From a virus, in IMG/VR virus record IMGVR_UViG_3300045988_173726, positions 192,001-256,000 of that record: a DNA stretch of 64,000 nt; one strand, 5' to 3'. A program made the position numbers and the translations under genes. Of the stretch, positions 47,036 through 64,000 are shown one piece after another (position 1 is the stretch's first letter; every line of letters starts with the position of its first letter). The notes under the pieces were generated by a model, which was given only the letters and a program-made list of their open reading frames with translations, searched no databases and had not been told where the DNA came from.

Positions 47036-47048
47036 GAGGGATATAGAC

Positions 47049-47325: not shown

Positions 47326-49002
47326 ATGAGAGATAAGTTTCTTGTGTGTTCATATGTTGAGGGTAGTGGATTTTTGGTTGTGTCAGAAATGTCCGCAGAG
47401 GGAGCGGTTAAGACACAGGAAGAGATAGAGCGGGAGATGGCAGGGGATGATAGCGCCGAGTATCTGTTTGTGCGGGATAAGGCAGGAGAGCTTGACTTTA
47501 GTATTGAGGCAAACGGCTTGTCTGTATATCGCGAGGGGGAAGATGGGAAGCTTACACTTGTGTCCGAGGGAAGGAATCGCATTATAGGCGTGATTGACGA
47601 GGTAATTGGAAGTAAACTTCTGTATAAGGTGATTGACGCATATGGGAAAGCATCTGTAAAAGAGCTGTCGTTTGACGAAATCGCACGGGATAACTACTTA
47701 ATCATGCCATTTATCGGTGACAGCGGAAAATACCGCTCATTTTTAGATAAGATAGAAGAGAGAAGGAGAGTAATTTCAGAAAATCCGAAGTATTTCGAGG
47801 AAGAGGCTCGTAGTCGGCTCGTAGGGCAGGATTGCGCAGTCTATACAGAGGAGCGGCAGGGTGCAGAGTTTGTGACTGTGGTTCGTTCGTTTAATCCCTG
47901 TGGTAGCGGGGTTTGTAAACTTTCAAATCGTGTGAATCATGTTTTTATAGAATTAGGTTCTTTTATTTCAGCGGGTATTCGGGTGCTGGATTTAAGTGAG
48001 TGTTCTTGTCTAACGAGATTTATTCTAACAAAGGTTAGTGTTGTTATAAGCGAATCTCCGATAACGATAATCTTTAATGAGGGGTATCATGCAGGCTTAG
48101 ACGCACGCATACATGTGGAAGGGGCGAATATTAGGTTTATCGGGCTGTCCTCGGTAAAGGAGCTGAATATTGAGAATAGCCATATAGAGGGGATTTCTGC
48201 TTTGAGGGTAACAACTGGCTCACGAGTTCATGGTGAGGTGCGGATTAAGAATAGCACAGGGTTTAATCAGCTCAAGATTGATTTAAGCGAGAATGAGGGT
48301 AAAGAGGCTCTGGCGTATATTTGTGGGGTAGACGCGAATGAGATAGAGATTATCGGGAGTGGACAGGGAATCGGGGAAACGCACTGTGTTACTGGGTTAA
48401 AGGTTGCAAAGTGTAAGGAATTGACGCGCCTTAAAGTGAGTGGAGTTGGAGTTTGCTCATTGCAGGAAATCACAAGGTCGTTTTGTGACCTTCCAAAACT
48501 TGTTAGCTTTTCTCTTTACGCACATAAGCTAAATTTTACAGTCTCACAGTATGCGAGGCAGGAGGTGTTTAATTTGACTCTTGGCTCAACTGCGCTTCGT
48601 GAGCTTATTTTGTCAGCAGAGTATACGACTCGCGGGGCTAAGTGGCTAAAGGTCGGGTATGACAGGCGGGTAGCCTTAAGCCTTCCAGATTCGCTTCGGG
48701 AGTTTGTAGTTCCGATGGATTTAACAGACGAGTGCCTTAATTTACTGGCGCTTACGAGTTCATATAAAGGTCTTTTTATGGACGGTGATAAGCTTACGCT
48801 TGACTTAGGGGATGTAGATAATCCAGATGTTTACCCGATACTTGTGAGTTCTGGTGGCAAGGCTAATTTTAGAGTTCCGTCATGTGTAGATAAGATTGTT
48901 GACACGAGCGTATATTCTTGTGACTTAAAGTTTAGGCTGTTTTTACATAGTAGGACAGAGGTAGCGGATTCTGTGGTTGAAGAGGTAGTGAGATGCGACT
49001 AG
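47326..49002 (+). CDS. Cys-motif / LRR-like paralog family, member L2
   Basis: GGGAG RBS before ATG 47326. Family motifs EARSRLVGQDCAV ... GSGVCKLSNRV ... GIRVLDLSECSCL, followed by a repetitive Leu-rich region. Confidence 0.75.
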   Translation: MRDKFLVCSYVEGSGFLVVSEMSAEGAVKTQEEIEREMAGDDSAEYLFVRDKAGELDFSIEANGLSVYREGEDGKLTLVSEGRNRIIGVIDEVIGSKLLYKVIDAYGKASVKELSFDEIARDNYLIMPFIGDSGKYRSFLDKIEERRRVISENPKYFEEEARSRLVGQDCAVYTEERQGAEFVTVVRSFNPCGSGVCKLSNRVNHVFIELGSFISAGIRVLDLSECSCLTRFILTKVSVVISESPITIIFNEGYHAGLDARIHVEGANIRFIGLSSVKELNIENSHIEGISALRVTTGSRVHGEVRIKNSTGFNQLKIDLSENEGKEALAYICGVDANEIEIIGSGQGIGETHCVTGLKVAKCKELTRLKVSGVGVCSLQEITRSFCDLPKLVSFSLYAHKLNFTVSQYARQEVFNLTLGSTALRELILSAEYTTRGAKWLKVGYDRRVALSLPDSLREFVVPMDLTDECLNLLALTSSYKGLFMDGDKLTLDLGDVDNPDVYPILVSSGGKANFRVPSCVDKIVDTSVYSCDLKFRLFLHSRTEVADSVVEEVVRCD

Positions 49003-50714
49003 AGGGAGAACTGTTCGAGGTTAAGCGCGGGATGTTCTACGCCTGTTTAGCCTGTGTAGAGGGTTATAAGGGGTCTGACGGGTTTATAGTAGTGCCGATG
49101 GTTCGGAGTAATTTACGGGAAGAGGGGTTTTCAGCCAACAGCGGGTGGGTTATTGAGAAAGGGCTTTTTAATTCAGTAGACCCGAATTTTTTAATCTTTG
49201 GCAAAACACACCAGCTTCCAGTTTATCGTGTAAGGAGTGACAGAAAGCTCTCTCTAAAGTCTAGGGGAATGGATAGGATTTTCACGGTAGGTAATAGCTT
49301 GGGGTCTCTTTGTATTACGGAGATAAATTCTGTGGGAGAGCTTTTGGTAGAGAAAGTGAATATTCCAAAGATTTTAGAAAAGCAGGCTAGTTCGGTGTTT
49401 ATAAATGTTATAAGTGGCGAAGATGTGGCTTCTGTTAAGTTTAGGGACGCGTTGATGAATAAGCTAGGGGAGTTGAGGGGTAAATTCTCTGGAGATGATT
49501 TAGGGTTATCAATAGTACAAAATGCTCTAACAAACGCGGATTGCAGTATGTTAGAGCCAATGGGTCTTAATACTTGCCTAGTTGGTTTTTATGAATGTAA
49601 AACAGGGGTCTGCCAAGTCCTTGATAGGGTAGATTATGTTAGAATTAGCATATATTCTATGATTAAGGCAGGGGTTAGGGTTCTTGACTTATCAAGATGC
49701 ACGCGGTTAAAGGAGTTTACACTGACAGGTGGGGGAAGTGGTGGCATCATTACGATTATCTTTAATGACGCATTAAGTTATAGGATGGACAGTAAGATAC
49801 AGATTTCTTCTGCGGGGGTTCGGTTTATCGGGTTAAAGCATATTGGTATTCTGGAGGCTGACGATTGCCGTATAGAGGGTATTTCAGAAATCACCTTTGC
49901 TTCTCCTAGAGATACGATAAAGTCCTGTTGTGTTAATCTTCATAAGTGTGATGGATTTGATTCATTGAAGATTAACGTAGGAAATACAGCGTTTAACTTG
50001 GAATCTTCCATTTCAATTTCTGATATAGACGCAAAAGAGATTTCAATTAAGATGCACGAGAAAAAGGTAGAAGCCGAGGATTTTGAGATAGCGCGTTGTG
50101 CTGAATTAGAGAGTCTTACAATAGACGGAGCAGGGGAGTGGTATTTTTCAGATTTAGTACAAAAGATTAGGCTGTTACCTAAGCTAAGGAGGGCAAGATT
50201 TAATTTCGATTCCTTTAATATAAACCTGATTAATAACGAGAGAGGTGCAATTTCTAACCTAAGCCTAGGCTCTACAGTATTAGAGAGTCTTAAAATTTGC
50301 GCAGATTATTCAATGGACGAATACAGTATGAGTCCAGAGATATGGTGCGATAGTAGAGTGGAATTAGATTTGCCGAGTGAGTTAATGGAGCTGATAACTA
50401 TAAAAAGGCTCACAGATATGGGTAGATTTCTACTCGCGTTTACTTGCGGTACGGTAGCACTTAAAAGAAATGGTAGAGAGGTTAGCTTAAACTTAGAGGA
50501 GCTTAGGGATTGGGATGGCTTTGATGATAACGGATGGTCTATGGTTACAAGAAACCTTTCACTGTATCCAAAGTGTGCGCAAGTAAACGGAGAGCCAGCT
50601 ATCCGTATTCCAAAGAGCATAGTGAGTTCCGTGGATAGTAATTCTGTGAATGGTTGGAAGTCTGGGACAGGCTATCGAGTTTATTTAGGAGATGAGAGAA
50701 TTGATAAGGAATGA
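48993..50714 (+). CDS. Cys-motif / LRR-like family, member L3
   Basis: Overlaps L2 by 10 nt. VQNALTNADCSML ... KTGVCQVLDRV ... GVRVLDLSRCTRL. Confidence 0.75.
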   Translation: MRLEGELFEVKRGMFYACLACVEGYKGSDGFIVVPMVRSNLREEGFSANSGWVIEKGLFNSVDPNFLIFGKTHQLPVYRVRSDRKLSLKSRGMDRIFTVGNSLGSLCITEINSVGELLVEKVNIPKILEKQASSVFINVISGEDVASVKFRDALMNKLGELRGKFSGDDLGLSIVQNALTNADCSMLEPMGLNTCLVGFYECKTGVCQVLDRVDYVRISIYSMIKAGVRVLDLSRCTRLKEFTLTGGGSGGIITIIFNDALSYRMDSKIQISSAGVRFIGLKHIGILEADDCRIEGISEITFASPRDTIKSCCVNLHKCDGFDSLKINVGNTAFNLESSISISDIDAKEISIKMHEKKVEAEDFEIARCAELESLTIDGAGEWYFSDLVQKIRLLPKLRRARFNFDSFNINLINNERGAISNLSLGSTVLESLKICADYSMDEYSMSPEIWCDSRVELDLPSELMELITIKRLTDMGRFLLAFTCGTVALKRNGREVSLNLEELRDWDGFDDNGWSMVTRNLSLYPKCAQVNGEPAIRIPKSIVSSVDSNSVNGWKSGTGYRVYLGDERIDKE

Positions 50715-50871
50715 TAAGCTGACAGGTAGAAGTAGAGCAAGTAGTACGGTATATGCGAAAGAGGTTACAGGGGAAGCTAGGAGTAAAAACTTCGTTTATC
50801 TGATTCGAGGCTTGGTCTGTGAGGCAGACGGGGAAAATTCAAGAATAGTAGGCTTTTTAGTCCAGAAATAA
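50692..50871 (+). CDS. 59-aa ORF resembling the extreme N-terminus of the L family (possible gene fragment)
   Basis: Below the track cut-off. KNFVYLIRGLVCEADGENSRIVGF resembles L11 IRFCYVAGFLCNRDADGEIKRE and L10 IVTGVLCKHKADGSPVVTH. Poor RBS spacing. Confidence 0.3.
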   Translation: MRELIRNDKLTGRSRASSTVYAKEVTGEARSKNFVYLIRGLVCEADGENSRIVGFLVQK

Positions 50872-50882
50872 ACCTGCGAGGT

Positions 50883-51305
50883 ATGGTAGGCGGTGACGAC
50901 AGCTGGTATTATATTCCGCTTGCCGTTTATGCTGAACTACTTCGCGGAGGTTTTGTGGAGCATTTTAGTCTTAATGAAAAAGAGCATAGCGAGTTTAGTC
51001 CTTATTTGTTTCCGATATTTAAGCGCAGGAACGAGGGTGAATTTGTAGTGGTCGAGGCAGGGAAGGCGATACGAGTCTATGGTTCTGATAAGACAGGTTT
51101 ATTTGGGGCATTTGATAGGCTTGGAAATAATATATCTGGAAGTGATGTGCCTTTTAGCTGGTACAGGGAGCATCTGGGGGAGTTTGCGCTGTCTACAAGC
51201 GCCTCGATGCGGCTAATGGACAAGTATGGTATGGGAGAGGCTAGATTTTACTGGTGCTTGTCTCGTTCAATAGAGAAAGAGAATTTAAGGAGGAGAAATA
51301 AGTGA
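50883..51305 (+). CDS. 140-aa protein resembling the N-terminal module of the L family, without the Cys-motif/LRR part
   Basis: SPYLFPIFKRRNEGEFVVVEAGKAIRVYGSDKTGLFG resembles L10 DLPVFIGDKEKNTLYKKGKLRVIYADRTGVAARG and L11 DLPLFIGKKKGYKVYREGKLQIFAY. Confidence 0.5.
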   Translation: MVGGDDSWYYIPLAVYAELLRGGFVEHFSLNEKEHSEFSPYLFPIFKRRNEGEFVVVEAGKAIRVYGSDKTGLFGAFDRLGNNISGSDVPFSWYREHLGEFALSTSASMRLMDKYGMGEARFYWCLSRSIEKENLRRRNK

Positions 51306-51607
51306 GTGTGTCGAATATAGAGCGCGAGACAGTGATTCTGTTTAACGAAGCAGAGGATACGGTGAGTGTATACACATTTAACCAGACTCTAAAGCGGAAG
51401 TTAGGAGATTTTAGCGAGAAGTATCCTGCACTTTGTAAAAAGACGGCAGAGGATAGCCTAGGAAGCGTGACCTATTCAGTCGCAAAGGACAGGCTTTCGA
51501 TAAGTTTACGCGCTCCGCTTAGTGAGGAGAAGAAAGAAGCGCTTCGTGAGAGAGGTAAGAAGCTGTTTGAGAGGCTTAAGGCGAAGCAGAGTCGGGAAGA
51601 GGGGTAA
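51302..51607 (+). CDS. hypothetical protein
   Basis: AAGGAGGAG RBS; GTG in a GTGA overlap; 101 aa. Confidence 0.55.
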   Translation: MSVSNIERETVILFNEAEDTVSVYTFNQTLKRKLGDFSEKYPALCKKTAEDSLGSVTYSVAKDRLSISLRAPLSEEKKEALRERGKKLFERLKAKQSREEG

Positions 51608-51612
51608 GCCGA

Positions 51613-53589
51613 ATGGATTATTCTTATAATGGACGGAAGAAAGTAGAGGTTTACGCAGTTTACGGTAAGGTGGAGAGTTCCGATGAGTATTTGCTAGCGG
51701 TAGCAGACACTCATCGTGATGGATTTCGTTTTTCAGCCTGTAAGGTATGCGGCAGTGATTATATACGGGAGTTAGCGGAGAATGGTAGACTGCTGTTTTT
51801 CCGTAATTGCGGTGATAGGCTTACATCAAGTGTTCCGAACAGTATGTTTGCTTCATTTGTTGTGGGAGAAGATGGGAAGCCCGTGCTTAAGAAGCGTGGA
51901 GTTCCGATGCTTTTATCTGTAGAGAGTGTAGTGGAAAGCACAGCTACGGTAAATCTTATCCTAGCGGACGGCACGCTGTTTCATGGGGATATTGGGGCAT
52001 GGGAGTTAGGTCGTAGGATAGTTTATCGGGGTGAAGATGTAGTCGAGGGGTCTATTCTTTCGGATGCCTATTACGAAGATACAAGCGAGGTTTTAGGGGA
52101 TAGTCTAGAGCGTTTTATGATTCGCCGTTTTGAGATTGTTGCAAAGAACGCGGAGTATAGTAAAGAGGCTTCGAGGTCTGCACTGGTCGGCGGGGCTTTT
52201 GCAGAGTACAATGGAAATGCGAGGGATGCGTTTAAGGACGAGTTTTACAAAGAAAACGGTTTATTTTGGGTTGTAACGAGCTTTTATCAGTGTTCAAATC
52301 ATGTGTGTAGGTTACCTTCTTATGTAGACGGGTTAGAGTTTAACATAGACCGTTGTATGGAGACTGGTGTAAAGGTGGTGGATGCGTCTTGTTGTGAGAA
52401 GTTGAGCTATATTAATATATTCTCCGCAAGTGGAAGGATTTATGATGAGAAAGTCACTGTAATTCTTCCCAGTAAGTTTAGGTCTATTAAGGATAAGTTA
52501 AGCCTCTACGGGGTAAGTATCGACTTTTTAGGGGCTAATATATCTGTAAAAGAGTTTTCGGCAACGGACAGTGAAGTTAAAAACATAGGTCGGGTTAAGA
52601 CGAATGGGATATACATAGCAGGAACTAGCTTTATGCAGGACGAATTAGAGGTGTCACTTGTGGGCGGGTATAGAAGTGACAGGGAAATTTTCCTAGAGGT
52701 ACCGTCCCTTGTGTTAAACATTTCTTCAAAGTATGACGGATGTATTATAGAGAGTGATAGCCTAGAGCGTTTGTCGGTATCCTGTAAGAGCGTCTGCTTA
52801 GAGAGTTTTTCCGAGTGCGTTACAGCGCAGAATCTAAAAGAAGTTCGTCTGGTTGCTGGGGAAGTGAGTTCTTTGCTCGCTGGTAGAGTAGAGGATAGGT
52901 TTCATGTGTTATTGTTTGGGTCAGAGCGTCTTTCGAGCATAAGTATCATGGCAGACAGTATAAAGGGGCGTGCGACTACTTTGTTTTGTAGGGACAGTGT
53001 GAGGGTAAACATAGAGACCAAGGACGGGAGTGAGGAGAAGGTTTGTATTTCTCCTAGGCAGTTTAGCGATAGGTTTATTAGGATATGTAGCGTGCTTGGT
53101 GGCGGCTGTATTCGGTATCATAACGGGGTATTTGCGCTGGCTTTTGACTATGATTATTCGTTTGATAAGATGGCACGGGTATTTAGGACAGAGGGAGACA
53201 AAATAATCCTAGACATACCGGAAGAAATCAAAGAGTTTAGAGGGTTTTCTAGGGATTATGAGTTTGATTTCGAGACGGTTCTGCGCTTTAACGGGGATAT
53301 AGCAATAACTGGGCAGATGGACGGGCTTAAGCCTGTTCGTATTGAGAACAGTGAGTTTATTACGAGTCTTTGTAACTATGCGTTTGCGGATTGCGAGGTA
53401 GCGAAGTTTGAGTTTAGGATAGGTGATAAGCTAAAGAGGTTGCCTGATAACTGTTTTCGGAGTTCTGGGATAAGTAGGATTTACGGGATAGAGAAGCTAG
53501 AGAGCGTATCTCCGACTGCGGTAGAGAATTGCGTATTAGATAGTGCGACCGAGAGGGAGCTAAAGGCTAAGATTCAGCGGAAGGTTTAA
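51613..53589 (+). CDS. Cys-motif / LRR-like family, member L4 (C-terminal BspA-type LRR units)
   Basis: ASRSALVGGAFAEY ... SNHVCRLPSYV ... GVKVVDASCCEKL. C-terminus IENSEFITSLCNYAFADCEVAKFEFRIGDKLKRLPDNCFRSSGISRIYG. Confidence 0.75.
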   Translation: MDYSYNGRKKVEVYAVYGKVESSDEYLLAVADTHRDGFRFSACKVCGSDYIRELAENGRLLFFRNCGDRLTSSVPNSMFASFVVGEDGKPVLKKRGVPMLLSVESVVESTATVNLILADGTLFHGDIGAWELGRRIVYRGEDVVEGSILSDAYYEDTSEVLGDSLERFMIRRFEIVAKNAEYSKEASRSALVGGAFAEYNGNARDAFKDEFYKENGLFWVVTSFYQCSNHVCRLPSYVDGLEFNIDRCMETGVKVVDASCCEKLSYINIFSASGRIYDEKVTVILPSKFRSIKDKLSLYGVSIDFLGANISVKEFSATDSEVKNIGRVKTNGIYIAGTSFMQDELEVSLVGGYRSDREIFLEVPSLVLNISSKYDGCIIESDSLERLSVSCKSVCLESFSECVTAQNLKEVRLVAGEVSSLLAGRVEDRFHVLLFGSERLSSISIMADSIKGRATTLFCRDSVRVNIETKDGSEEKVCISPRQFSDRFIRICSVLGGGCIRYHNGVFALAFDYDYSFDKMARVFRTEGDKIILDIPEEIKEFRGFSRDYEFDFETVLRFNGDIAITGQMDGLKPVRIENSEFITSLCNYAFADCEVAKFEFRIGDKLKRLPDNCFRSSGISRIYGIEKLESVSPTAVENCVLDSATERELKAKIQRKV

Positions 53590-56582: not shown

Positions 56583-58006
56583 ATAGTGAGGAGAGTTTTC
56601 GTGAACTCTTGTGTGAGAAAGAGGGCGGTGTTTTAACGGTAGACGGGGAATCAAAGCACTGGAATATGCTGTATCTCGTGGGGCTTGTCGGGTATTCGGA
56701 AAAGCGTATAATGGGAAAACTTGTTACTGCGAAGTCCCCGAGTAGTGGAAAGGGTGAAGTCTTTTATATCTCTGTCAAAGCGTTTAATCGGTGGTGTGTA
56801 AAACCAAGAGGTACAAAGCCAGAGAACAAGCATAGGTGGGACTGCGCCGTGAGGGGAAGGTCGGATGAGAGCAACCCAGATAATAGACTTAGCTTTGAAG
56901 TATCGGATTTTCCTTTTTATAAAAAGGATGGTGCAGTGTTTACGCGACTTTCGTTGGGTAGGTATCGCTTTTTCGGGGATTTCAAAGATTTTAAGGACGG
57001 AAATCCCTTTGTAGGGTTTAGCGGAGAGGGAGAGCCTTTATGTTTTACTCCGAGTTATGAGTGGTTGAAACGAGAGTATGAGAATGTATCTTTTATTAGC
57101 GATACAGATTATGGGTCGGATGTTTGTAAGCGTATAATTATGCGGCATCTTCGTCTTGTAGAAGATGAAGAGTATCAGCTAGAGGCGGTGAGGAGTAAGC
57201 TAACGGGGAGTGATTGCGCAGTTAAGGCTGTGGGAAATGACGGGGTTAATGTATACTATTTTAATTCCTCGAATAATGGGGTTTGTAAGTTACTGAATGA
57301 TGTAGACTGTCTGTATATTGGCAGGGCTGACTATCTTAATGGGGTTAAAGTTATTGACGCATCTAGCTGTAAAGACCTTCATAACATTGACATAGCATGG
57401 GTTGGTGATTGCACTTTTATCATGCCTTCCGCGTCTAATGGATTAAAGAAGTTAAGTCTTTGCGCGGTTAATGTTGTTGGTTTATCTAAAGTCATATTTA
57501 GACGCGAGCTAGGGGACACTGGAAATTTTACATTAGAGTTAAAGTCGTGTACAGGGTTAGACATGCTTAGTGTCGAGGCTACTGGATATTCAAGAAATGA
57601 CGCTAGTAACGCTATTGTAATTGAAGATGCTACGCTTAGAGGGTTAGTCATAAACGCTCCTACATTAAGGCTGTCGGCTGGAACATTTCGTCTTACGACC
57701 CCGTGTTTACGGAGTTTAGAGGTAGAAGCGGGGGCGTTAAAAGTGAGTGAATTGTTCGCAATGCTTTTAGAGATGCCAGAGGTAGAGAATATTAGCCTAA
57801 GAGTTAGTAAGATAGAGGTATCTAAAGATGAGCGCGGGTCTATATGGCTTAATTTTGACGCATTTAAGAGGTTAAAGTGCCTGCATATAGAGGTAGCAGA
57901 GCAGTGTAACGAGGAGTTTCGGCTTGTATTGCCAGAGGGTTGTTCTGCGACTGCCAGAGGAGTGATGTGTTCAGTTTATAAGAAAGTAGGTGAACTTGGT
58001 GGATAA
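56579..58006 (+). CDS. Cys-motif / LRR-like family, member L7
   Basis: GGGGAGG RBS; ATGA overlap with L6. AVRSKLTGSDCAV ... NNGVCKLLNDV ... GVKVIDASSCKDL. Confidence 0.75.
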   Translation: MNSEESFRELLCEKEGGVLTVDGESKHWNMLYLVGLVGYSEKRIMGKLVTAKSPSSGKGEVFYISVKAFNRWCVKPRGTKPENKHRWDCAVRGRSDESNPDNRLSFEVSDFPFYKKDGAVFTRLSLGRYRFFGDFKDFKDGNPFVGFSGEGEPLCFTPSYEWLKREYENVSFISDTDYGSDVCKRIIMRHLRLVEDEEYQLEAVRSKLTGSDCAVKAVGNDGVNVYYFNSSNNGVCKLLNDVDCLYIGRADYLNGVKVIDASSCKDLHNIDIAWVGDCTFIMPSASNGLKKLSLCAVNVVGLSKVIFRRELGDTGNFTLELKSCTGLDMLSVEATGYSRNDASNAIVIEDATLRGLVINAPTLRLSAGTFRLTTPCLRSLEVEAGALKVSELFAMLLEMPEVENISLRVSKIEVSKDERGSIWLNFDAFKRLKCLHIEVAEQCNEEFRLVLPEGCSATARGVMCSVYKKVGELGG

Positions 58007-59087
58007 TGGAGTGTTGAAGATTAGAGAAACAAGTTTACAGGAGATGCTTGATAAAGGCGAGTGTTTGGTTCGTTTTCCAGACGGTAGGGAGGAGATGGTA
58101 AAACTAACTTTTGACTTTGTAAAGGCGAATTACGAGCAAATAGAGTTTCCGCTGATTAACGAGAAGGAGGAGGAAGTGTATAAGGCGAATCTTTATCGCC
58201 GTCTTAAGCTAACAGATAATGACGAGTATCGGCTTGCCCGTGCAAGGAGCGCGCTTACCCATGAGGATTGCGGGGTTAGAGAGTGCAGTAGAGACGGGAT
58301 TGTAGAGATTAATGAGTTGTGTGAGAGCCATAACGGAGTTTGTAAGCTAATAAATGATATAGATAAGTTGTCACTTGACACTAGAGAGCTTTCAAAGAGT
58401 GGAGTTAAGGTTCTTGATTTAGGCGCGTGTGACGATTTATTGAATCTACAGCTATTTATTGACCAGTCCAATAAGCCTGATACTGTGTTAATTCTTCCGT
58501 CTGCTTCAAATGGTTACGAGAAGTTTTTTATTGGAAACTGTGCAGTAAAGGGTTTATCGGAGATAAAGGTTTTGCTAAGCAGGATGACTATTGGTCGTAA
58601 GGCTGGTCATTATGTAAGAGTAGCTAGTGTAACTGGTCTTGATAGTCTTAGCATACGGTTGGAAGGTAGTGATTACTGTGCTGGAGACAGTCATGATATA
58701 AGCGTATATGAAAATGACGACCTAAAGAGCCTAGATATAGACTATATTTTGCCGTCTTACGGTACGAAGTTTGGCTTGTCTGTAAGGAATAACGACAAAT
58801 TAAAGAAATTATCAATTAGGACTCTTGAGTTTAAATTTGATATTGATTCCGCATTTGGCTTTCTTCCGAGTCTCGAAGAGCTTAGTATTTCTGTGCTTTC
58901 GTCATATGGAATCACAGCGCTTGATTTAAGCAATTTGGAAAGTCTTAAGAGGTTTTCGTTTACATCGGAGGAATCTGGCTGTATCAATATTCTTGTCAGT
59001 AATGAGTGTGAGGTTGTGGTAAACGGAACGAGCGCGAAGGTTTTTAGATACGATAGGTATATTGAAGGAGGAAAGCATGAAGAATAA
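57990..59087 (+). CDS. Cys-motif / LRR-like family, member L8
   Basis: The start is uncertain (GTG 57990, or GTG 58011 just after the L7 stop). RARSALTHEDCGV ... HNGVCKLINDI ... GVKVLDLGACDDL. Confidence 0.7.
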   Translation: MNLVDNGVLKIRETSLQEMLDKGECLVRFPDGREEMVKLTFDFVKANYEQIEFPLINEKEEEVYKANLYRRLKLTDNDEYRLARARSALTHEDCGVRECSRDGIVEINELCESHNGVCKLINDIDKLSLDTRELSKSGVKVLDLGACDDLLNLQLFIDQSNKPDTVLILPSASNGYEKFFIGNCAVKGLSEIKVLLSRMTIGRKAGHYVRVASVTGLDSLSIRLEGSDYCAGDSHDISVYENDDLKSLDIDYILPSYGTKFGLSVRNNDKLKKLSIRTLEFKFDIDSAFGFLPSLEELSISVLSSYGITALDLSNLESLKRFSFTSEESGCINILVSNECEVVVNGTSAKVFRYDRYIEGGKHEE

Positions 59088-59134: not shown

Positions 59135-60784
59135 ATGATTGATAGAGAGGGTTTATTTAGCCCGAATGCGACTAGTAGAGGAGAGCCAGATAGCGACAAG
59201 CTAGCATATTTGTCTCTTAGGATAAATGGTCTGGCGGGTGATGTTGACATAAGAACACTTGAAAAAATATCGTTTTATGCCGCATTAGCCTACGACCCGA
59301 TTCGGACAAGAGTCCAAGAATCAGTTCAATGTAAATTTGCGACTGCTGGTTTTGGGATTACAAAAGAGGGTTTACCATTTGCTTTGGTAGTACCAATGAG
59401 CAGTTTTTTGTCTCGTAATGTCGGACGGGATTGGTCGGTACGCGCCGTTACGACGTCCGAGTATTGGGAGCATGTATCATTGAATGTGGTAGTCGAGTTT
59501 AGCGCAGGAATCCCTTTGTCAGATGAATGGAAAGCCGAATTTCCTTTGATGGACGAGGAAGGCAATTTACTAGAGAGTGGTAGGCTTCGGGTTTATGCTT
59601 TTGGGGATGTACTTGTAGCTAACGGGTTTGACGTGGAGATACCGTGCGGCTTTGTTTCTGTGGATGGTGAGCTTTGGAATGGAAGTGAGTTAAATGACAG
59701 TTATTTTGTAGATAACGAAGAAGTTAAGGTTTATTCAGATAAACAGGAATATAAGGATAGCATTACGAACGGTATAGCTCGGTTGTCTAGCTATTTAAGT
59801 AGAAGTGTAGCGGCGCGTAATCGTTTAACAGGTGCAGACTGTTGTGTTTATAAGCTAGTCGCAAGCAAGACAGCTCCGATTGTAGTGACTGGGTTTAATT
59901 CAAGTCAGAACGGTGTTTGTACAGTAAGTGATTGTGCCGATTGGATAGGTGCAAGAGAGGATAGCTTATATAACGCAAACATCAAAGTGCTTGATATGCA
60001 GAAGAGCGCGGTAAAGCGTGTTCAGATATTTGAGAGTAAGGGGGATAGCCTGTCTTTATGCTTTCCAGAGAGCCAGTATTTCGGAAGCCTTGTATTTTCA
60101 GACCTAGAGGTAATACTTGTAGGTCAAGTTTGTGTCCGAGGTTTTAAGGCGACATCCTGTAAGGTTTCTGGTTTAAGCTATGTGCAGTATGTGGATTATG
60201 ACGCTTTTGGAATTACGCCGATAAAGGAAGGGATGGATGACGAGTTCGAGAGAGGGCTTATCTTTCACTTGATACGAGTGGTAGGGCTTGGTTTAGTCGT
60301 AATAGAGGGAAGTAACTGTTTATCGGAGACAACGCATTCAGAGCTGTTAATAAGCAACACAGATATAAAGAGTTTAACGGTTAAGTTGTATGGGACTGTT
60401 ATAAAGATGCTTCGTGTTTCGGATTGTCTTTATATTAAGTCTATAGATATTGACTGCGACGAGGTAAGCCTTAGAGAAATAATAGGATTTGTGCAGAACT
60501 GTCCTAGGCTAAAGGAGATTAAGATACATGTAAAGAGGATGCCGTTTGTAACATACGATACGAAGTCGAAATGGGTCGGCGAAGAGTTTGTAAACAAGAC
60601 ATACAGTGAAATTACGGCAGATGCGATGTTGTTGCTGACGAACGAGGCTCTTACAAAGTTTACGCTATTGGCAGACAACCTAGTAGATTTTCCGAGCATA
60701 AAGGTTAAGTTCCCGATTTTGCACAAGATGGAGCTAAGTTTATCCGACAATTTGAAAAAGTTTATAGATGTCATAAAGTGTTAG
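59135..60784 (+). CDS. Cys-motif / LRR-like family, member L9
   Basis: AARNRLTGADCCV ... QNGVCTVSDC ... NIKVLDMQKSAV. Confidence 0.7.
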   Translation: MIDREGLFSPNATSRGEPDSDKLAYLSLRINGLAGDVDIRTLEKISFYAALAYDPIRTRVQESVQCKFATAGFGITKEGLPFALVVPMSSFLSRNVGRDWSVRAVTTSEYWEHVSLNVVVEFSAGIPLSDEWKAEFPLMDEEGNLLESGRLRVYAFGDVLVANGFDVEIPCGFVSVDGELWNGSELNDSYFVDNEEVKVYSDKQEYKDSITNGIARLSSYLSRSVAARNRLTGADCCVYKLVASKTAPIVVTGFNSSQNGVCTVSDCADWIGAREDSLYNANIKVLDMQKSAVKRVQIFESKGDSLSLCFPESQYFGSLVFSDLEVILVGQVCVRGFKATSCKVSGLSYVQYVDYDAFGITPIKEGMDDEFERGLIFHLIRVVGLGLVVIEGSNCLSETTHSELLISNTDIKSLTVKLYGTVIKMLRVSDCLYIKSIDIDCDEVSLREIIGFVQNCPRLKEIKIHVKRMPFVTYDTKSKWVGEEFVNKTYSEITADAMLLLTNEALTKFTLLADNLVDFPSIKVKFPILHKMELSLSDNLKKFIDVIKC

Positions 60785-60794
60785 AGTAATACTA

Positions 60795-60832: not shown

Positions 60833-60868
60833 GTTTATGTTAAAAATAATTTACAGGAGGCTTGTCAA

Positions 60869-63094
60869 ATGGCGGGTAAAACTAAGATTGTAACGGGGGT
60901 GCTTTGTAAGCATAAAGCAGACGGAAGCCCCGTAGTAACGCATATGATAGTTAGGGAGTTACAGTGGGAATCTAGCAAGAAGGCTCGGCTTGGAGACTAT
61001 CGGTATGTTGGGATAAAGGCTTGGAAGAATAGCACGAGCAAGGCTAAGTTTATTGGGTTTAAGTGGGTATATAACAGTGGGAATAGGGAGAGAGAGTATA
61101 TACAGCAGTATTCTGATAGCGATTTACCAGTCTTTATCGGGGATAAAGAGAAGAATACGCTTTATAAGAAAGGTAAGCTTCGTGTGATTTACGCGGATAG
61201 GACAGGCGTAGCGGCGCGGGGTGTAGGGGTTTTATATCTTGATGAGGCGGGGGTTCTTCGTGAGTACTCTGAATTTAGTTCATTTGTAGAGAGGCATCGC
61301 GGGGAGTATGCGCTTTTGCAGGGAGTGAGTGGGTCAGCAAAGCTTAGTAGCTTAGAGGAACAGGCAGTTACGCTTTTAGAGGATAATGAGTATAAGTTAA
61401 ATCGCGCAAGGAATCGTATGACGGGAGAGGATTGTACGATAAGCGAGGTAGCAGAGGACGGAGTTCATGTAACGGGGCTTAATAGGTGTGAAACTGGGAT
61501 ATGTAAGGTAAATCCTAGAGCGAGTGAGATTGATTTAGAAATTTCAAGCGGGAGCGGGGTTAGAGTGCTTGACTTAAGCGGGTGTAATGAGCTTAAGAAG
61601 TGTCGGTTATCGGTTAAGGGAGTAGCGTCCTTTGTTTATGTTTCGCCGCCTGTAGGTGCTAAGAATGTAATACTAGATATTACAGATTGTAGTGATTTAA
61701 CACTCATGGGGGATAAGCCAGAGTTTTTTTCGTTGTCGGTAAATCATAGTAAGCTTCAAGGGCTTAAGAAAATTATAGTGGATTATAGCTTAGTGCTTAA
61801 CGGTTGCACTGGGATACCAGAACTTTTTGTGAGTTCTTATTCTAGGAGATTTGAGAAGTTAGAGATAAGTAATTGTGATTTAGAGAGACTAAAGGTTGCT
61901 GTGGCTGTTAATGTAGCTATCCGAAACTGTAGTCTACTTAAAGAGCTGTCTATAGATATGGATACGCTTTTTATTGACAAGTTATCTAGGCTTGTTAGCA
62001 ACTGTAGAGCGCTTGAGAAGGTAGTAGTACACGCAAGACGGGTTAGCTATAGTGTAGACTCAAATAGAGACGGAAATCCGATAGTTACTGCAACATTCGG
62101 GTCTATGTCGTTAAAGCGAATAGAAATTAATGTGGAGGATAAGCTTAGTGTAGGGATACTTCCAGTTCCGAATGACTTTGCAATCGGGTATGAGGATAGA
62201 GTAAGAGTTGCGTGTAACAACGATAAGCTACGGGCATATTTTAAGCCAGTGAAGTTTAGTGATGAGATTAAAGACTTGCTGTGTGCGTCAGTGTTTGCGC
62301 CACTTTTTTATGTAAAGGATAGAGTGACGGTACAGTTTAACTCGCTATTGTTTAGGGGCGCAATGGTGGGGAATCCTTTGTTTAGAGGGGGAGAGCTTCG
62401 GATTCCAAAGGAGGTAGAGGCGCTACAAGGTAGTTTAGGCAGTGATTTTCCTATTAAGAGTCTGCATTTAAGCGGTAAGGTATCAGTAGGGGACTCGGTG
62501 TTTAAGAATACAGGTCTTTCAGAGGTTGTAGGCAGTGAGTATTTAACTTCGGTCGGGGCGCTGTCGTTTGCGGGGACGAAGCTTAGTCGGTTGGCTCTGG
62601 GGAAAGAGGCGAAGCTTTCGGAGTTTTCGTTTGGTGGATGTGAGAGTTTAACAAGTGTAAGTGGGCTTTGGGAGATAAAGAGTGCAAAGAGGACAGCATT
62701 TGCTCTTTGTAATAACCTAGATAGCGACACTTTTGGGGTTCTTTATAAGAAGCAGTGGTATATGTCAACGGATGAGCTATTAAGCGAGTATCCAGAGAGG
62801 GCATACGAAAAGTATGTTCATAGGGAAATAGACGGAGTGATTACGGAGGACGACTGCAAATATACACAGCGCTTAATCGAGCTTAGGATAGATGACGCGG
62901 CTATAAAGAGGTTTATGAAGGAGCAAGGGGTAAGCCGAGAGGAGAAAGCGGGGTTAAAGGAGCTTCTTAGTATTATCAGCAATGTTTATTACACTTACGA
63001 GGGGAAGGGGATTTCGCCAGTGGCGAGTTATTATGTTGACCTAGGGACTACGGAGCGTCTTATCTATCGTTTACGCAGGGTATTGGAGTTGTGA
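60869..63094 (+). CDS. Cys-motif / LRR-like family, member L10 (long; C-terminal BspA-type LRR units)
   Basis: AGGAGG RBS. RARNRMTGEDCTI ... ETGICKVNPR ... GVRVLDLSGCNEL. C-terminal LHLSGKVSVGDSVFKNTGLSEVVGSEYLTSVGALSFAGTKLSRL. Confidence 0.75.
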   Translation: MAGKTKIVTGVLCKHKADGSPVVTHMIVRELQWESSKKARLGDYRYVGIKAWKNSTSKAKFIGFKWVYNSGNREREYIQQYSDSDLPVFIGDKEKNTLYKKGKLRVIYADRTGVAARGVGVLYLDEAGVLREYSEFSSFVERHRGEYALLQGVSGSAKLSSLEEQAVTLLEDNEYKLNRARNRMTGEDCTISEVAEDGVHVTGLNRCETGICKVNPRASEIDLEISSGSGVRVLDLSGCNELKKCRLSVKGVASFVYVSPPVGAKNVILDITDCSDLTLMGDKPEFFSLSVNHSKLQGLKKIIVDYSLVLNGCTGIPELFVSSYSRRFEKLEISNCDLERLKVAVAVNVAIRNCSLLKELSIDMDTLFIDKLSRLVSNCRALEKVVVHARRVSYSVDSNRDGNPIVTATFGSMSLKRIEINVEDKLSVGILPVPNDFAIGYEDRVRVACNNDKLRAYFKPVKFSDEIKDLLCASVFAPLFYVKDRVTVQFNSLLFRGAMVGNPLFRGGELRIPKEVEALQGSLGSDFPIKSLHLSGKVSVGDSVFKNTGLSEVVGSEYLTSVGALSFAGTKLSRLALGKEAKLSEFSFGGCESLTSVSGLWEIKSAKRTAFALCNNLDSDTFGVLYKKQWYMSTDELLSEYPERAYEKYVHREIDGVITEDDCKYTQRLIELRIDDAAIKRFMKEQGVSREEKAGLKELLSIISNVYYTYEGKGISPVASYYVDLGTTERLIYRLRRVLEL

Positions 63095-63107
63095 GGGGGT
63101 GGCAAGA

Positions 63108-64000
63108 ATGAGTAGAGATAGAAATGGTAGACAGATAAGGTTTTGTTATGTGGCGGGATTTCTCTGTAATCGGGACGCGGATGGAGAGATTAAGAGGGAA
63201 GCCGCAGTTACGGTAGAGGCAGTCGTTGAGCGGCAGTATTATAAAGACGATAGCGTGGCTATTCTAAGGGCTAAGAAGAAGTTTATCCCGATTAGCGATT
63301 GGGAAGCCTTTAAGCGGACAGAGACTCATGAATACGCAGGGTTTAGCCTCCAGAGGGATGGGTGTGAGTTTGAGCAAGGGTTTTTAGACGCTGATTTGCC
63401 TTTATTTATCGGAAAGAAGAAAGGGTACAAGGTTTATCGAGAGGGGAAGTTACAGATATTCGCTTATTGTGCGCTTTTCCGTAAACAGGCAGTAATTGCT
63501 TATGCTGATAGTGACGGTGAGCTTAAGTTATCATTCGGAGTTAACGCTAGCCAATTTATGTTAGAGCATAGCGGGAAGTATATCTTAAATCAAGTGCGGG
63601 GATTTAGCGGAGAGAACTTAACAATGCTCGAAGAGGAGGCGGTTAAGCTAGCTAGTGATAAAGAATATCAGCTTAATGCGGCGCGTAGCAGGATGACGGC
63701 GGCAGACAGCACAGTAACGGATGTAAGAGCCGAGGGTTTAACTGTGACTAAGGTTTTAAGAAGTGAGTCGGGGGTTTGTAGGGTTAATCCGAATGTCAAT
63801 GTATTTCGTCCAAGCGAAAGGATAAACGGGACACTCTTAAAGGTTTTGGATTTAAGCGCGTGTAAAGAGCTAAGGATGGCAGATGTTTGGCTTGAAAACG
63901 CGGATAGTGTGGCAGTGTTGTTTCCGTCAGAGAGGTTAAACTGGTTATCGCTTAAATTACAAGATGTAAAGCAGGCTAATCTTGTAAATCTTGGAGCTTT
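63108..64000 (+). CDS. Cys-motif / LRR-like family, member L11 (3' partial, runs off the window)
   Basis: Not in the track because it has no stop codon. I translated it from ATG 63108 (MSRDRNGRQIRFCYVAGFLCNRDADGE...) and it stays open to nt 64000. AARSRMTAADSTV ... ESGVCRVNPN ... LLKVLDLSACKEL. Confidence 0.7.
   Translation, partial: MSRDRNGRQIRFCYVAGFLCNRDADGEIKREAAVTVEAVVERQYYKDDSVAILRAKKKFIPISDWEAFKRTETHEYAGFSLQRDGCEFEQGFLDADLPLFIGKKKGYKVYREGKLQIFAYCALFRKQAVIAYADSDGELKLSFGVNASQFMLEHSGKYILNQVRGFSGENLTMLEEEAVKLASDKEYQLNAARSRMTAADSTVTDVRAEGLTVTKVLRSESGVCRVNPNVNVFRPSERINGTLLKVLDLSACKELRMADVWLENADSVAVLFPSERLNWLSLKLQDVKQANLVNLGA

What the first reader, a model, noticed from the sequence alone, without database searches (positions are those of the whole stretch)
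47326..64000. At least 10 tandem paralogs (~17 kb) of an unrecognised Cys-motif + LRR-like protein family
L2-L11 form an almost uninterrupted head-to-tail array with frequent overlapping start/stop codons, and the array continues past the window end.

Members share a tripartite core:
1. A helix, EY-x-L-x-x-[AV]-R-[SN]-[RAK]-[LMI]-T-G-x-D-C.
2. About 20-30 aa later, N-G-V-C-K-[LV].
3. About 15-25 aa later, G-[VI]-[KR]-V-[LIV]-D-[LA]-S-x-C-x-x-L.

These are followed by irregular Leu-rich repeats. L4 and L10 end in BspA/LRR_5-type units, and the solitary LRR protein at 32472-34190 may be a distant relative.

The N-terminal modules are variable and modular. L5 lacks one entirely, and 50692-51305 looks like an N-module without the core. 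There are no signal peptides or TM segments.

I cannot assign the family. The conserved Cys pattern (DC...C..GVC...C..L) suggests a metal- or disulfide-stabilised domain presenting a variable LRR surface. The expansion suggests an arms-race function: binding diverse host targets, host-range or receptor-binding modules, or anti-defence decoys.
Basis: partly seen in the sequence, partly recalled or inferred. Interest (0 to 1): 0.8.

Follow-up and report, generated by a model that had tools for sequence, protein, structure and literature searches.

The report
Expanding LRR-protein gene array in phage
An uncultivated ~215–273 kb phage lineage seen in human saliva gives an estimated 14–17% of its genome to a fast-changing tandem array of about 20–26 related, unannotated leucine-rich-repeat-like proteins, a gene-family expansion of a kind better known from giant eukaryotic viruses; their function is still only inferred.

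Summary
Window 47326–64000 holds 10 head-to-tail paralogs (20–36% identity, BLASTP E down to 1e-41), one frameshifted N-domain-only copy and the 3' remnant of a deleted copy.

In related ~240–273 kb contigs the array continues to about 20–26 members, an estimated 34–44 kb.

Each protein has three parts:
- an orphan β-rich N-domain of about 160 aa;
- an irregular β-solenoid of LRR type, which motif 3 begins as its first canonical LxxLxLxxCxxL unit.

The cysteines are not a metal or disulfide site. Over 102 distinct members they are 77–94% conserved, and the first is replaced by L, F or I.

Pfam, PHROGs, NCBIfam, PADLOC and 50,697 GenBank phage records do not contain the family. All 37 family-like representatives among 1.84 billion proteins align to arrays of this phage clade, 35 of them at ≥50% identity.

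Array genes diverge far faster than core genes (ω 0.14–0.46 versus 0.01–0.24). Alleles are mosaic, and natural variants have lost 6 to about 20 members.

Most likely this is a dispensable repertoire of intracellular binding proteins used in host or competitor conflicts. The function is inferred, not shown.

The parts
47326..49002 (+). L2, family member (558 aa from the ATG; N-domain + cap + LRR-like solenoid)
   Evidence: Core HMM E 2e-93. The ortholog P0087 starts at this ATG. Its best paralog is its neighbour L3.
48993..50714 (+). L3, family member (573 aa); overlaps the end of L2 by 10 nt
   Evidence: Core HMM E 1e-93. BLASTP against L2 gives E 1e-41.
50692..51305 (+). N-domain-only member, disrupted in the window by a 46-bp deletion and frameshift (frames 50692–50868 and 50883–51305); intact at 219–237 aa in relatives
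   Evidence: Translations; DNA alignment to L003; N-domain HMM E 5e-5 to 1.5e-5.
51302..51607 (+). Conserved 101-aa ORF embedded in the array; not a family member, function unknown
   Evidence: 94–97% identical in three relatives, ω 0.08–0.16. No Pfam hit and no hit to the core or N-domain HMMs.
51613..53589 (+). L4, family member (658 aa) with a C-terminal BspA-type LRR_5 stretch
   Evidence: Core HMM E 2e-78. Pfam LRR_5 at residues 574–654, 26.5 bits, just below the 27.7 cut-off.
53613..54497 (+). L5, short family member (294 aa) lacking the N-domain and motif 1
   Evidence: Core HMM positions 43–275, E 1e-59. Its best paralog is its neighbour L4.
54724..54882 (+). 3' remnant of a deleted family member ('X'; 547–553 aa where it is one ORF in relatives, split into two ORFs in others)
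   Evidence: The 52-aa ORF matches the C-terminus of P0104/P0102. BLASTN shows about 1.57 kb missing relative to L016, L003 and L005.
54879..56582 (+). L6, family member (567 aa); a divergent allele, 50–63% identical to orthologs
   Evidence: Core HMM E 4e-81; ortholog comparison.
56579..58006 (+). L7, family member (475 aa from the ATG; ORF open from the TTG at 56564)
   Evidence: Core HMM E 7e-74. AF2 model with pLDDT about 90 over most of residues 170–480. More than 60 orthologs found.
57990..59087 (+). L8, family member (365 aa) with a truncated N-domain
   Evidence: Core HMM E 2e-79. BLASTP against its neighbour L7 gives E 1e-29.
59135..60784 (+). L9, family member (549 aa); motif 3 lacks the Cys
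   Evidence: Core HMM E 8e-79; alignment.
60869..63094 (+). L10, long family member (741 aa): N-domain, cap, solenoid, LRR_5 block and a helical C-terminal tail
   Evidence: Core HMM E 7e-84. Pfam LRR_5 37.7 bits, above the gathering score. AF2 pLDDT 77.7. Foldseek best hit 4fs7, E 1.1e-4.
63108..64000 (+). L11, family member cut by the window end (771–772 aa in relatives)
   Evidence: Core HMM E 2.5e-42. BLASTP against L10 gives E 1e-32. Full-length orthologs are L005 16546–18861 and P0096.

Best explanation
**Shown**
- This is a lineage-specific multigene family of a ~215–273 kb uncultivated phage lineage; one related contig comes from human saliva.
- Every full member has three parts:
  - an orphan β-rich N-domain of about 160 aa, in which the only columns conserved at ≥60% are Gly, Pro, Phe, Leu and Arg (no invariant Asp, Glu, His, Ser or Cys);
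  - a helical hairpin plus β-hairpin carrying motifs 1 and 2;
  - an irregular β-solenoid of roughly 9–10 turns of about 21–22 residues, of BspA/TpLRR-like LRR type, which motif 3 begins as its first canonical LxxLxLxxCxxL unit.
- The family grew by local tandem duplication.
- It shrinks by deletion and by recombination between paralogs.
- It is the most variable part of an otherwise 86–99.8% identical set of sampled neighbouring genes.
- Most of it is dispensable in nature.

**Inferred**
- Motifs 1 and 2 form the N-terminal cap of the solenoid.
- The proteins have no secretion signal, so they act inside the infected cell.
- Each LRR solenoid is a binding surface for a different protein target, either a host defence or housekeeping factor or a protein of a competing phage.
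- The N-domain, which is better conserved, supplies a function common to all paralogs, such as docking or oligomerisation.
- The array would then be an accessory host-range or counter-defence repertoire, whose content is reshuffled between strains as targets change.
For: **Family and architecture**
- Paralogy and motifs.
- A single homologous N-domain in which only G, P, F, L and R columns reach ≥60% conservation.
- AF2 models: the helix pair (182–199 and 202–214 in L7), the β-hairpin and a run of short strands spaced about 10–12 residues apart, with pLDDT about 90.
- Foldseek hit lists are dominated by LRR proteins. The best is the BspA-type 4fs7 at E 1.1e-4, followed by 4h09, TpLRR 6mlx and 4oju.
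- The family HMM also hits the repeat regions of bacterial DUF285/LRR_5 surface proteins.

**Cysteines**
- They are substitutable by hydrophobic residues.

**Cellular location and genomic setting**
- No convincing TM segment or signal peptide.
- The array lies between an endolysin plus an R–M-like module upstream and guanylate kinase, a Dda-like helicase and clamp-loader-like ATPases downstream. It is not in a recognisable structural module.

**Lineage restriction**
- All 37 family-like representatives out of 1.84 billion align to this clade's arrays, 35 of them at ≥50% identity.
- No GenBank phage record matches.

**Evolutionary rates**
- Core replication genes are 86–99.8% identical, with ω 0.01–0.24.
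- Array genes are 50–98% identical, with ω 0.14–0.46 and dS from 0.05 to 1.3, which indicates mosaic alleles.
- Among orthologs, the LRR part is the most variable: entropy 0.41–0.94 per 20-residue block (mostly ≥0.56), against 0.14–0.46 for the N-domain.

**Turnover**
- In the complete array, 15 of 20 members have their best paralog as an immediate neighbour (none of 10,000 permutations did as well).
- The L6::L13 chimera P0078 sits on a contig that lacks L7–L12.
- A 214-kb contig keeps only the last 5 members.
- In the window itself, one member is deleted and one frameshifted.
Against: - No target, expression timing or cellular location is known. Absence of a signal peptide is equally expected for virion proteins.
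- No domain of at least 150 codons reaches ω > 1. Pooled values are N-domain 0.32, cap 0.24, LRR 0.34 and C-terminus 0.24. Relaxed constraint explains the rates as well as an arms race does.
- Many copies in relatives are split into two ORFs. This could be decay, or errors in metagenome assemblies.
- Canonical LRR units are few, and Foldseek TM-scores are low (0.1–0.5). The LRR assignment of the core therefore rests on predicted structure and profile hits, not on a curated model.
- An endolysin lies upstream, so the neighbourhood is not purely early genes.
- The 214-kb variant could be a misassembly.
Confidence: 0.45

Rival explanations
1. The proteins are virion-associated receptor-binding or adhesin proteins, a many-bladed set of tail appendages. 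The better-conserved N-domain anchors each protein to the particle, and the variable LRR solenoid binds different cell-surface structures, widening or switching host range.
For: - The pattern of a conserved N-part and a variable C-part, with mosaic alleles, is typical of phage receptor-binding proteins as I know them; searches show that pattern here.
- The nearest relatives of the repeats are bacterial surface adhesin-type LRRs: LRR_5/BspA, and DUF285 proteins with SLH or Listeria-Bacteroides repeats.
- Absence of a signal peptide is compatible with virion proteins.
- An endolysin and a transglutaminase-core protein lie a few kb upstream.
Against: - No member hits any tail-fibre, tailspike or baseplate family in PHROGs or Pfam.
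- The flanks are R–M-like and replication or nucleotide-metabolism genes.
- Twenty-plus monomer-type LRR proteins, with N-domains only about 15–20% identical to one another, are hard to seat on one particle.
- Variants that have lost 6 to about 20 members still exist in nature.
Confidence: 0.2
2. The array is part of a phage-borne defence or exclusion island. Each LRR protein is a sensor that recognises a protein of a competing phage or mobile element and, through the N-domain, blocks its development. It would work alongside the adjacent methyltransferase and nuclease genes.
For: - The array directly follows two EcoRI-type methyltransferases, a GmrSD_N+HNH nuclease (PADLOC REase_II, E 5.6e-118) and a small RHH-like ORF.
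- In one natural variant the R–M-like genes and about 20 array genes are absent together, as if one accessory block.
- Sensors built from LRR-type or other repeat scaffolds, with variable repeats and a conserved signalling part, are the logic of NLR-type immunity (established knowledge).
Against: - No NTPase, nuclease, TIR or other effector signature is present.
- N-domain columns conserved at ≥60% are only G, P, F, L and R.
- PADLOC has no hit for any member.
- Co-location with the R–M-like genes is a single observation.
Confidence: 0.12
3. The array is a largely neutral, decaying product of runaway tandem duplication. It is tolerated because a large capsid has room for it, and the individual members have no specific function.
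For: - ω is raised but stays below 1.
- Copies are frequently split, frameshifted or deleted.
- Large natural deletions occur.
- G+C is lower (41–43%) than in most upstream bins of the window (42–50%).
Against: - ω of 0.14–0.46 still means purifying selection on every member.
- Orthologs of single positions are kept across dozens of contigs at full length.
- Paralogs are old, at 20–36% identity with no long DNA repeats, yet remain open reading frames.
- Motif residues such as the R of motif 1, the G-V of motif 2 and the D and C of motif 3 are 84–94% conserved over 102 sequences.
Confidence: 0.08
4. This is the first reader's structural idea: the DC…GVC…SxC cysteines form a metal-binding or disulfide-stabilised domain that presents the LRR surface.
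For: - The three Cys are among the better-conserved positions in the ten window copies.
- The proteins are Cys-rich, with 6–20 Cys each.
Against: - Over 102 distinct members C1 is L, F or I in 19%, and C2 is N, Y or T in 23%.
- C3 occupies the C/N position of the LxxLxLxx(C/N)xxL unit.
- L4, L5, L9 and L11 in the window each lack one of the three.
- There is no fourth ligand and no His partner.
- The proteins have no export signal, and the bacterial cytoplasm is reducing (established knowledge), so disulfides are unlikely.
Confidence: 0.03

Closest known systems
BspA-like / TpLRR leucine-rich repeat proteins (Pfam LRR_5, PF13306; structures 4fs7 BACOVA_04585, 4h09, 6mlx TpLRR, 4oju)
   Same: - The predicted fold is a β-rich solenoid with repeats of about 21–23 residues and two strands per turn.
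- L10 passes the LRR_5 gathering score at its C-terminus, and L4 nearly does.
- 4fs7 is the only Foldseek hit below E 1e-3.
   Different: - The conserved core (cap plus about 9–10 turns) matches no Pfam LRR model.
- The repeats are irregular.
- The proteins lack signal peptides, and have an orphan N-domain and a specific helical cap.
- BspA-type proteins are typically secreted or surface proteins of bacteria and protists (my knowledge).
DUF285 (PF03382) / LRR_5 giant surface proteins of Firmicutes and Mollicutes
   Same: The family HMM hits their repeat regions, with E down to 6e-22 summed over up to 10 stretches, at profile positions about 83–250.
   Different: - The match is one-way only: hmmscan of the phage proteins finds no DUF285.
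- The bacterial proteins are 1,000–6,800 aa, some with SLH or Listeria-Bacteroides repeat anchors.
- They show no counterpart of profile positions 1–80 (motifs 1 and 2) or of the N-domain.
Multigene repeat-protein families of large eukaryotic DNA viruses (entomopoxvirus LRR gene family, mimivirus-group FNIP/LRR and ankyrin families, poxvirus ankyrin/F-box host-range genes)
   Same: - Tens of tandem paralogs of a repeat-scaffold binder take up a sizeable share of a large viral genome.
- Copy number and alleles vary between strains.
- The top BFVD structural neighbours are MSV253 (entomopox LRR family) and a Catovirus FNIP-repeat protein, at E 0.015–0.03, which is not significant.
- The correlation between repeat-protein gene number and genome size in amoebal viruses is described in PMC5753266 (abstract only seen).
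   Different: - This is a bacterial virus.
- There is no detectable sequence homology, and no F-box or PRANC partner domain.
- The resemblance is in logic and fold class only.
Bacterial LRR effector families with a constant partner domain (IpaH/SspH, YopM, internalins)
   Same: A variable LRR target-recognition module is joined to a conserved non-LRR module, and the family exists as multiple paralogs. A helical N-cap precedes the LRR, as in internalins (my knowledge). SspH1 and InlA/InlB appear among weak Foldseek hits.
   Different: - There is no NEL E3-ligase domain, no secretion signal and no inter-repeat Ig domain.
- The conserved module is N-terminal and shows no invariant Asp, Glu, His, Ser or Cys.
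- Foldseek E-values are above 0.1.
Lineage-specific expansions in jumbo phages (for example about 35 copies of a zinc ribbon in Bacillus phage G; Iyer et al. 2021, PMC7824862)
   Same: One jumbo-phage lineage carries a large lineage-specific paralog expansion of a small binding scaffold. That paper calls the phage G case 'unprecedented'.
   Different: - The scaffold differs (LRR-type solenoid versus zinc ribbon).
- The proteins are much larger (294–788 aa).
- The array is contiguous, takes an estimated 14–17% of the genome, and shows documented gain and loss between strains.

Membership tests
Leucine-rich repeat superfamily (structural class) | Tandem 20–30-residue units with the LxxLxLxx(N/C)xL signature | tested here: inconclusive
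   Motif 3 (V-[KR]-V-L-D-L-S-x-C-x-x-L) is a canonical unit in 8 of 10 members by the strict pattern. However, strict-pattern counts (0–4 per protein) do not exceed shuffles in 8 of the 10; L9 and L10 are marginal. The later turns are degenerate.
Leucine-rich repeat superfamily (structural class) | Curved solenoid of short parallel β-strands, one coil per repeat | tested here: met
   This is predicted, not solved. AF2 models of L7 and L10 have pLDDT about 85–95 over most of the core, with strands every 10–12 residues. Foldseek PDB hit lists are dominated by LRR proteins, the best being 4fs7 at E 1.1e-4, probability 1.0. TM-scores are low, 0.1–0.5.
Leucine-rich repeat superfamily (structural class) | Significant match of the repeat region to curated LRR profiles | tested here: inconclusive
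   The core matches no Pfam LRR model at E ≤ 1 apart from noise (LRR_4 at 13.9 bits in L5, LRR_EndoS at 12.7 bits in L10). In the other direction, the family profile hits DUF285/LRR_5 proteins at E down to 6e-22. Against PDB sequences it hits TIR1 at E 0.005 and SKP2 at E 0.19.
BspA-type LRR (Pfam LRR_5, PF13306) | Score at or above the Pfam gathering threshold (27.7 bits) | tested here: met
   This holds only for the C-terminal extension of L10 (residues 531–620, 37.7 bits). L4 is just below the threshold (26.5 bits). The other eight members have no hit. Orthologs of L10 carry precomputed PF13306.
DUF285 (PF03382) | Match to the DUF285 profile | tested here: not met
   No DUF285 hit at E ≤ 1 for any of the ten members. 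Only the reverse, family-profile search touches DUF285 proteins.
F-box / Cys-containing LRR proteins (FBXL, TIR1, SKP2 type) | An F-box (or other ligase-docking) domain N-terminal to Cys-containing LRRs | tested here: not met
   No F-box or related Pfam hit. The N-domain profile finds nothing outside the family, and nothing in PDB sequences (best E 0.064, adenosine kinase). The TIR1 and SKP2 sequence hits are weak.
Zinc-binding or disulfide-knot Cys domain | Invariant set of 3–4 Cys/His ligands | tested here: not met
   Conservation is C1 78% (otherwise L, F, I), C2 77% (otherwise N, Y, T) and C3 94%, over 102 distinct members. Four of the ten window copies lack one of them.
Phage receptor-binding proteins, tail fibres and tailspikes | Homology to known tail-fibre, tailspike or baseplate-attachment domains, or location in the tail module | tested here: not met
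   No PHROGs or Pfam tail family matches. The flanks are R–M-like, endolysin and replication genes.
Phage receptor-binding proteins, tail fibres and tailspikes | Presence in the virion | not testable with these tools
   This needs proteomics of purified particles. The phage is known only from metagenomes.
Diversity-generating retroelement targets | A template/variable repeat pair and a reverse transcriptase nearby | tested here: not met
   Within 42900–64000, the only direct repeats longer than 31 nt are a 131-nt pair inside the two methyltransferase genes (44296–44426 / 45245–45375) and two intergenic pairs of 44 and 38 nt. The large window ORFs that were scanned (20 of them) show no reverse transcriptase.

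The most novel reading that the evidence does not exclude
A bacteriophage maintains a germline-encoded repertoire of about 20–26 LRR-type recognition proteins that expands and contracts like a genomic accordion. This would be the prokaryotic-virus counterpart of poxvirus or giant-virus host-range multigene families. More radically, it could be a phage-owned pattern-recognition system in which each solenoid recognises a different host-defence or rival-phage protein, and the orphan N-domain couples recognition to a common output.
Probability: 0.2. Interest if true: 0.85.

Novelty: new variant of a known kind. Interest (0 to 1): 0.6.

Why it matters
If the inference holds, this is a natural library of about two dozen intracellular binders that one phage lineage reshuffles between strains. 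It would be a direct handle on which host or competitor proteins limit infection in the human mouth.

It would also show that the strategy of amplifying a repeat-scaffold binder family, long known from poxviruses and giant viruses, evolved in viruses of bacteria too.

On the practical side:
- The family adds two unannotated modules, the N-domain and the cap, that current databases miss.
- It marks a hypervariable region that breaks assemblies. One related contig ends inside the array and another within about 2.3 kb of it.
- It offers compact, Cys-rich LRR-like scaffolds with natural sequence diversity.

If the proteins turn out to be virion adhesins instead, the array would be one of the largest receptor-binding repertoires seen in a phage.

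Tried and rejected
**Searches that found nothing for the family**
- Pfam, PHROGs, NCBIfam and PADLOC scans of all members gave nothing for the core or the N-domain.
- Megablast of 20 kb of the window, and tblastn of L7 and L10, against 50,697 GenBank phage records gave no match.
- A scan of GTDB species genomes with L7 found no relative.
- The PDB sequence search with the core profile gave only weak LRR hits. With the N-domain profile it gave nothing credible.
- The N-domain profile search of 5.8 billion proteins returned only family fragments.
- Rfam over 42000–64000 gave nothing.
- The search for related loci with the core alignment failed for lack of a conserved 7–10 column stretch.

**Searches that gave only weak or uninformative results**
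- Foldseek of the L7 model against PDB and BFVD listed mostly LRR or FNIP-type proteins, but all at E > 0.01.
- All three fold-search jobs went on whole-protein models, so the fold of the N-domain alone could not be queried.
- The promoter and terminator scan found fewer sites than shuffles, so it says nothing about transcription units.
- Literature searches found no description of this family or phage clade. The saliva study that deposited BNJU01000154.1 does not list a 272-kb contig among its jumbo phages.

**Ideas tested and rejected**
- Kinship of the 32472–34190 protein with the family.
- A DGR mechanism.
- Recent gene conversion between paralogs in the window.
- Recombination at the 44-nt intergenic repeat as the cause of the big deletion: the motif is absent from the distal breakpoint in other contigs.
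- Domain-wise dN/dS above 1.

Full report
**What the window is**

All long ORFs lie on the + strand, and GC skew is +0.16 to +0.38 in every 2-kb bin. The upstream 47 kb encodes:
- a type II topoisomerase in two subunits, a DnaB-like helicase, an NAD-dependent ligase, a ParB/HNH protein and DNA methyltransferases;
- nine tRNAs;
- a transglutaminase-core protein and an SH3+NlpC/P60 endolysin.

This is a large tailed-phage genome. It has no near relative among 50,697 GenBank phage records; its topoisomerase is at most about 32% identical to any of them. Related contigs of 215–273 kb come from JGI, ENA and Logan metagenomes. One is an NCBI record, BNJU01000154.1 (272,439 bp), deposited by a long-read study of human saliva (PMC7782811).

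**Checking the observation**

- All-vs-all BLASTP gives 20–36% identity, with E from 1e-4 to 1e-41.
- The three motifs align in register.
- A profile of the core hits exactly these ten + strand window ORFs of ≥60 aa.

The genes overlap or are 5–84 nt apart, with one exception described below. Pfam finds LRR_5 only at the C-terminus of L10 (above threshold) and of L4 (just below). A hydropathy scan shows no convincing TM segment or signal peptide.

Three details need correcting:
- The N-termini are a single divergent homologous domain of about 160 aa, not assorted modules. L5 lacks it and L8 keeps only its end.
- The N-only ORF at 50692–51305 is a true N-domain-only gene, 219–237 aa in relatives. 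In the window it carries a 46-bp deletion and a frameshift.
- The 381-nt gap between L5 and L6 contains the last ~50 codons of a further member that relatives still have. About 1.57 kb has been deleted.

The protein at 32472–34190 is not related to the family.

**Anatomy**

AlphaFold2 models of L7 and L10 have pLDDT about 85–95 over most of the conserved core, and 70–90 for the N-domain of L10. The layout is:
- a β-rich N-domain;
- two helices, the second carrying E-Y-x-L-x-x-A-R-x-x-L-T-G;
- a β-hairpin beginning at D-C;
- a run of short strands every 10–12 residues, that is, two strands per turn of about 21–22 residues, for about 9–10 turns.

N-G-V-C-K-L is the first solenoid strand. V-K-V-L-D-L-S-x-C-x-x-L is a textbook LxxLxLxxCxxL unit. 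Later turns are degenerate, and strict LRR patterns are no more frequent than in shuffled sequence in 8 of the 10 members.

Foldseek hit lists are dominated by LRR proteins. For L10 the best hit is the BspA-type protein 4fs7 (E 1.1e-4, probability 1.0), followed by 4h09, TpLRR 6mlx and 4oju.

I therefore read motifs 1 and 2 as the N-terminal cap of an LRR-type solenoid, and motif 3 as its first regular turn.

The cysteines are not a ligand set. Over 102 distinct members:
- C1 is 78% Cys, otherwise L, F or I.
- C2 is 77% Cys, otherwise N, Y or T.
- C3 is 94% Cys and occupies the C/N position of the LxxLxLxx(C/N)xxL unit.

In the N-domain, the only columns conserved at ≥60% are G, P, F, L and R. 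This argues against an enzyme.

**How far the family reaches**

An exhaustive HMMER search of 1.84 billion representatives gave 321 hits, in two classes.
- Thirty-seven proteins under 900 aa match from the cap onwards. All 37 align to ORFs of this phage clade's arrays: 35 at ≥50% identity, and P0105 (42%) and P0098 (30%) more distantly.
- The others I examined are giant bacterial surface proteins that match only the repeat part. The five I scanned carry LRR-family Pfam domains: four have DUF285 (three of those also LRR_5), and some have SLH or Listeria-Bacteroides repeats.

The N-domain profile finds nothing outside the family. PHROGs, NCBIfam and PADLOC are silent. No GenBank phage record matches L7 or L10.

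**The complete array**

In contig IMGVR_UViG_3300006460_000097 the array has 20 core-bearing members. It runs to 133.8 kb from a start I estimate at about 99.4 kb, about 34 kb in all.

The distance from L7 to the first gene after the array is 23.6, 27.8, 32.9 and 33.0 kb in four contigs (coordinates). By my estimate this means about 20–26 members and about 14–17% of the genome.

The array is followed by guanylate kinase, a Dda-like helicase and clamp-loader-like ATPases. It is preceded by two EcoRI-type methyltransferases, a GmrSD_N+HNH nuclease that matches a PADLOC type II REase model end to end, and a small RHH-like ORF. I recognised no structural module on either side.

**Dynamics**

| | Core genes near the topoisomerase | Array genes |
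|---|---|---|
| Amino-acid identity, window vs four relatives | 86–99.8% | 50–98% |
| dN | 0.002–0.07 | 0.01–0.39 |
| ω | 0.01–0.24 | 0.14–0.46 |

- dS in the array ranges from 0.05 to 1.3, and differs between genes and within genes. The alleles are therefore mosaic.
- Among more than 60 L7 orthologs and 37 L10 orthologs, the solenoid is the most variable part and the N-domain and cap the least.
- No domain of at least 150 codons reaches ω > 1; pooled values are 0.24–0.34.
- In the complete array, 15 of 20 members have their best paralog next door (none of 10,000 permutations did as well). The family therefore grew by local tandem duplication.
- Paralogs share no long DNA repeats, so they are old. 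There is no DGR-like repeat pair.

Losses are documented:
- P0078 is an L6::L13 chimera, and its contig lacks L7–L12.
- A 214-kb contig (IMGVR_UViG_7000000698_000161) joins the intergenic region at window position ~43445 directly to the last five members. It omits the R–M-like genes and about 20 array genes.
- Many copies in relatives are split into two ORFs.

**Interpretation**

*Shown:* an orphan, lineage-specific family of LRR-type proteins that is amplified in tandem, evolves fast, is mosaic and is largely dispensable.

*Inferred:* the proteins have no export signal and sit among non-structural genes beside an R–M-like module. I think they most likely act inside the infected cell as a repertoire of binders. 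Each solenoid would be tuned to a different host or competitor protein, and the N-domain would give a shared docking or oligomerisation function. I put this at about 0.45.

Rivals:
- A virion-borne receptor-binding repertoire (0.2). The conserved-N, variable-C pattern and the adhesin-type repeats favour it. The lack of any tail signature and the gene neighbourhood count against it.
- A phage-owned exclusion or defence sensor set linked to the R–M-like genes (0.12).
- Neutral decay of a runaway duplication (0.08).

**Comparison with known systems**

In fold class the proteins are closest to BspA/TpLRR-type LRRs. Only the C-terminal extensions of L10 and L4 approach membership of Pfam LRR_5, and the core belongs to no curated family.

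In evolutionary logic the array resembles two things:
- the repeat-protein multigene families of poxviruses and giant viruses;
- the lineage-specific expansions noted in jumbo phages, for example about 35 zinc ribbons in phage G (PMC7824862).

I found no report of a comparable LRR array in a phage. The literature search covers open-access texts only.

**Verdict**

I class it as a new variant of a known kind and score interest at 0.6.

Noticed in passing
window 1-64000: GC skew is strongly positive in every 2-kb bin (+0.16 to +0.38, G far above C on the coding strand), and every long ORF is on the + strand. This is an unusually strong strand asymmetry for a phage of about 45% G+C.
   Followed up: no
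window 43594-47225: An R–M-like module lies directly upstream of the array. It comprises two tandem EcoRI-type adenine methyltransferases (43594–44601, 44588–45463), a GmrSD_N+HNH nuclease (45875–47035) that matches a PADLOC type II REase model end to end (E 5.6e-118), and a 74-aa RHH-like ORF (47001–47225).
   Followed up: partly
window 42933-43594: A 660-bp non-coding, G-rich stretch between the endolysin and the first methyltransferase carries a 44-nt direct repeat (43116–43159 and 43366–43409, 82% identical). Both copies are conserved in a related contig (L020 2279–2304 and 2530–2555). There is no Rfam match. It may be a regulatory region at the head of the accessory block.
   Followed up: partly
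L020 1-4700 (IMGVR_UViG_7000000698_000161, 214,136 bp): This related contig aligns to window 40881–43445 and then jumps straight to the last five array genes. The methyltransferases, the nuclease and about 20 array members are missing. It is either a natural deletion variant of about 45 kb or a misassembly.
   Followed up: partly
L016 10001-11350 (ENA ERZ1034294 NODE_16): P0078 is a chimeric gene: the N-terminal two-thirds of member L6 fused to the C-terminal helical tail of member L13. The six genes in between (L7–L12) are absent from that contig. This points to recombination between paralogs.
   Followed up: yes
window 51302-51607: A 101-aa ORF embedded in the array is far better conserved than its neighbours (94–97% identity, ω 0.08–0.16). 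It matches no family, and its function is unknown.
   Followed up: partly
L021 4646-5977 and L019 10779-12110: A 443-aa non-family ORF sits inside the array in one relative and just after it in another. It may be a mobile gene. There is no PHROG hit, and only a sub-threshold Pfam hit (DUF7307, E 0.004).
   Followed up: partly
window 28739-30988: A cluster of nine tRNA genes: Pro, Met, Tyr, Leu ×2, Ser ×2, Arg and Thr.
   Followed up: no
window 39137-42933: A 653-aa protein with a transglutaminase-core domain (39137–41098) is followed by a 224-aa ORF and an SH3_3+NlpC/P60 peptidoglycan hydrolase (41863–42933), the likely endolysin. These are the last genes before the accessory block.
   Followed up: partly
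window 19-555 and 3562-4410: These two ORFs, on either side of the N6 methyltransferase (548–2662) and upstream of the topoisomerase, are only 44–78% identical to their best matches in relatives whose neighbouring core genes are 95–99% identical. Both often hit the same ORF in a relative. This may be a second variable spot in the genome.
   Followed up: no
L001 (BNJU01000154.1, 272,439 bp): The NCBI relative comes from the human saliva long-read study PMC7782811. No contig of this length appears in that paper's table of jumbo phages as far as I could read it, so this lineage seems to have gone unnoticed there.
   Followed up: partly
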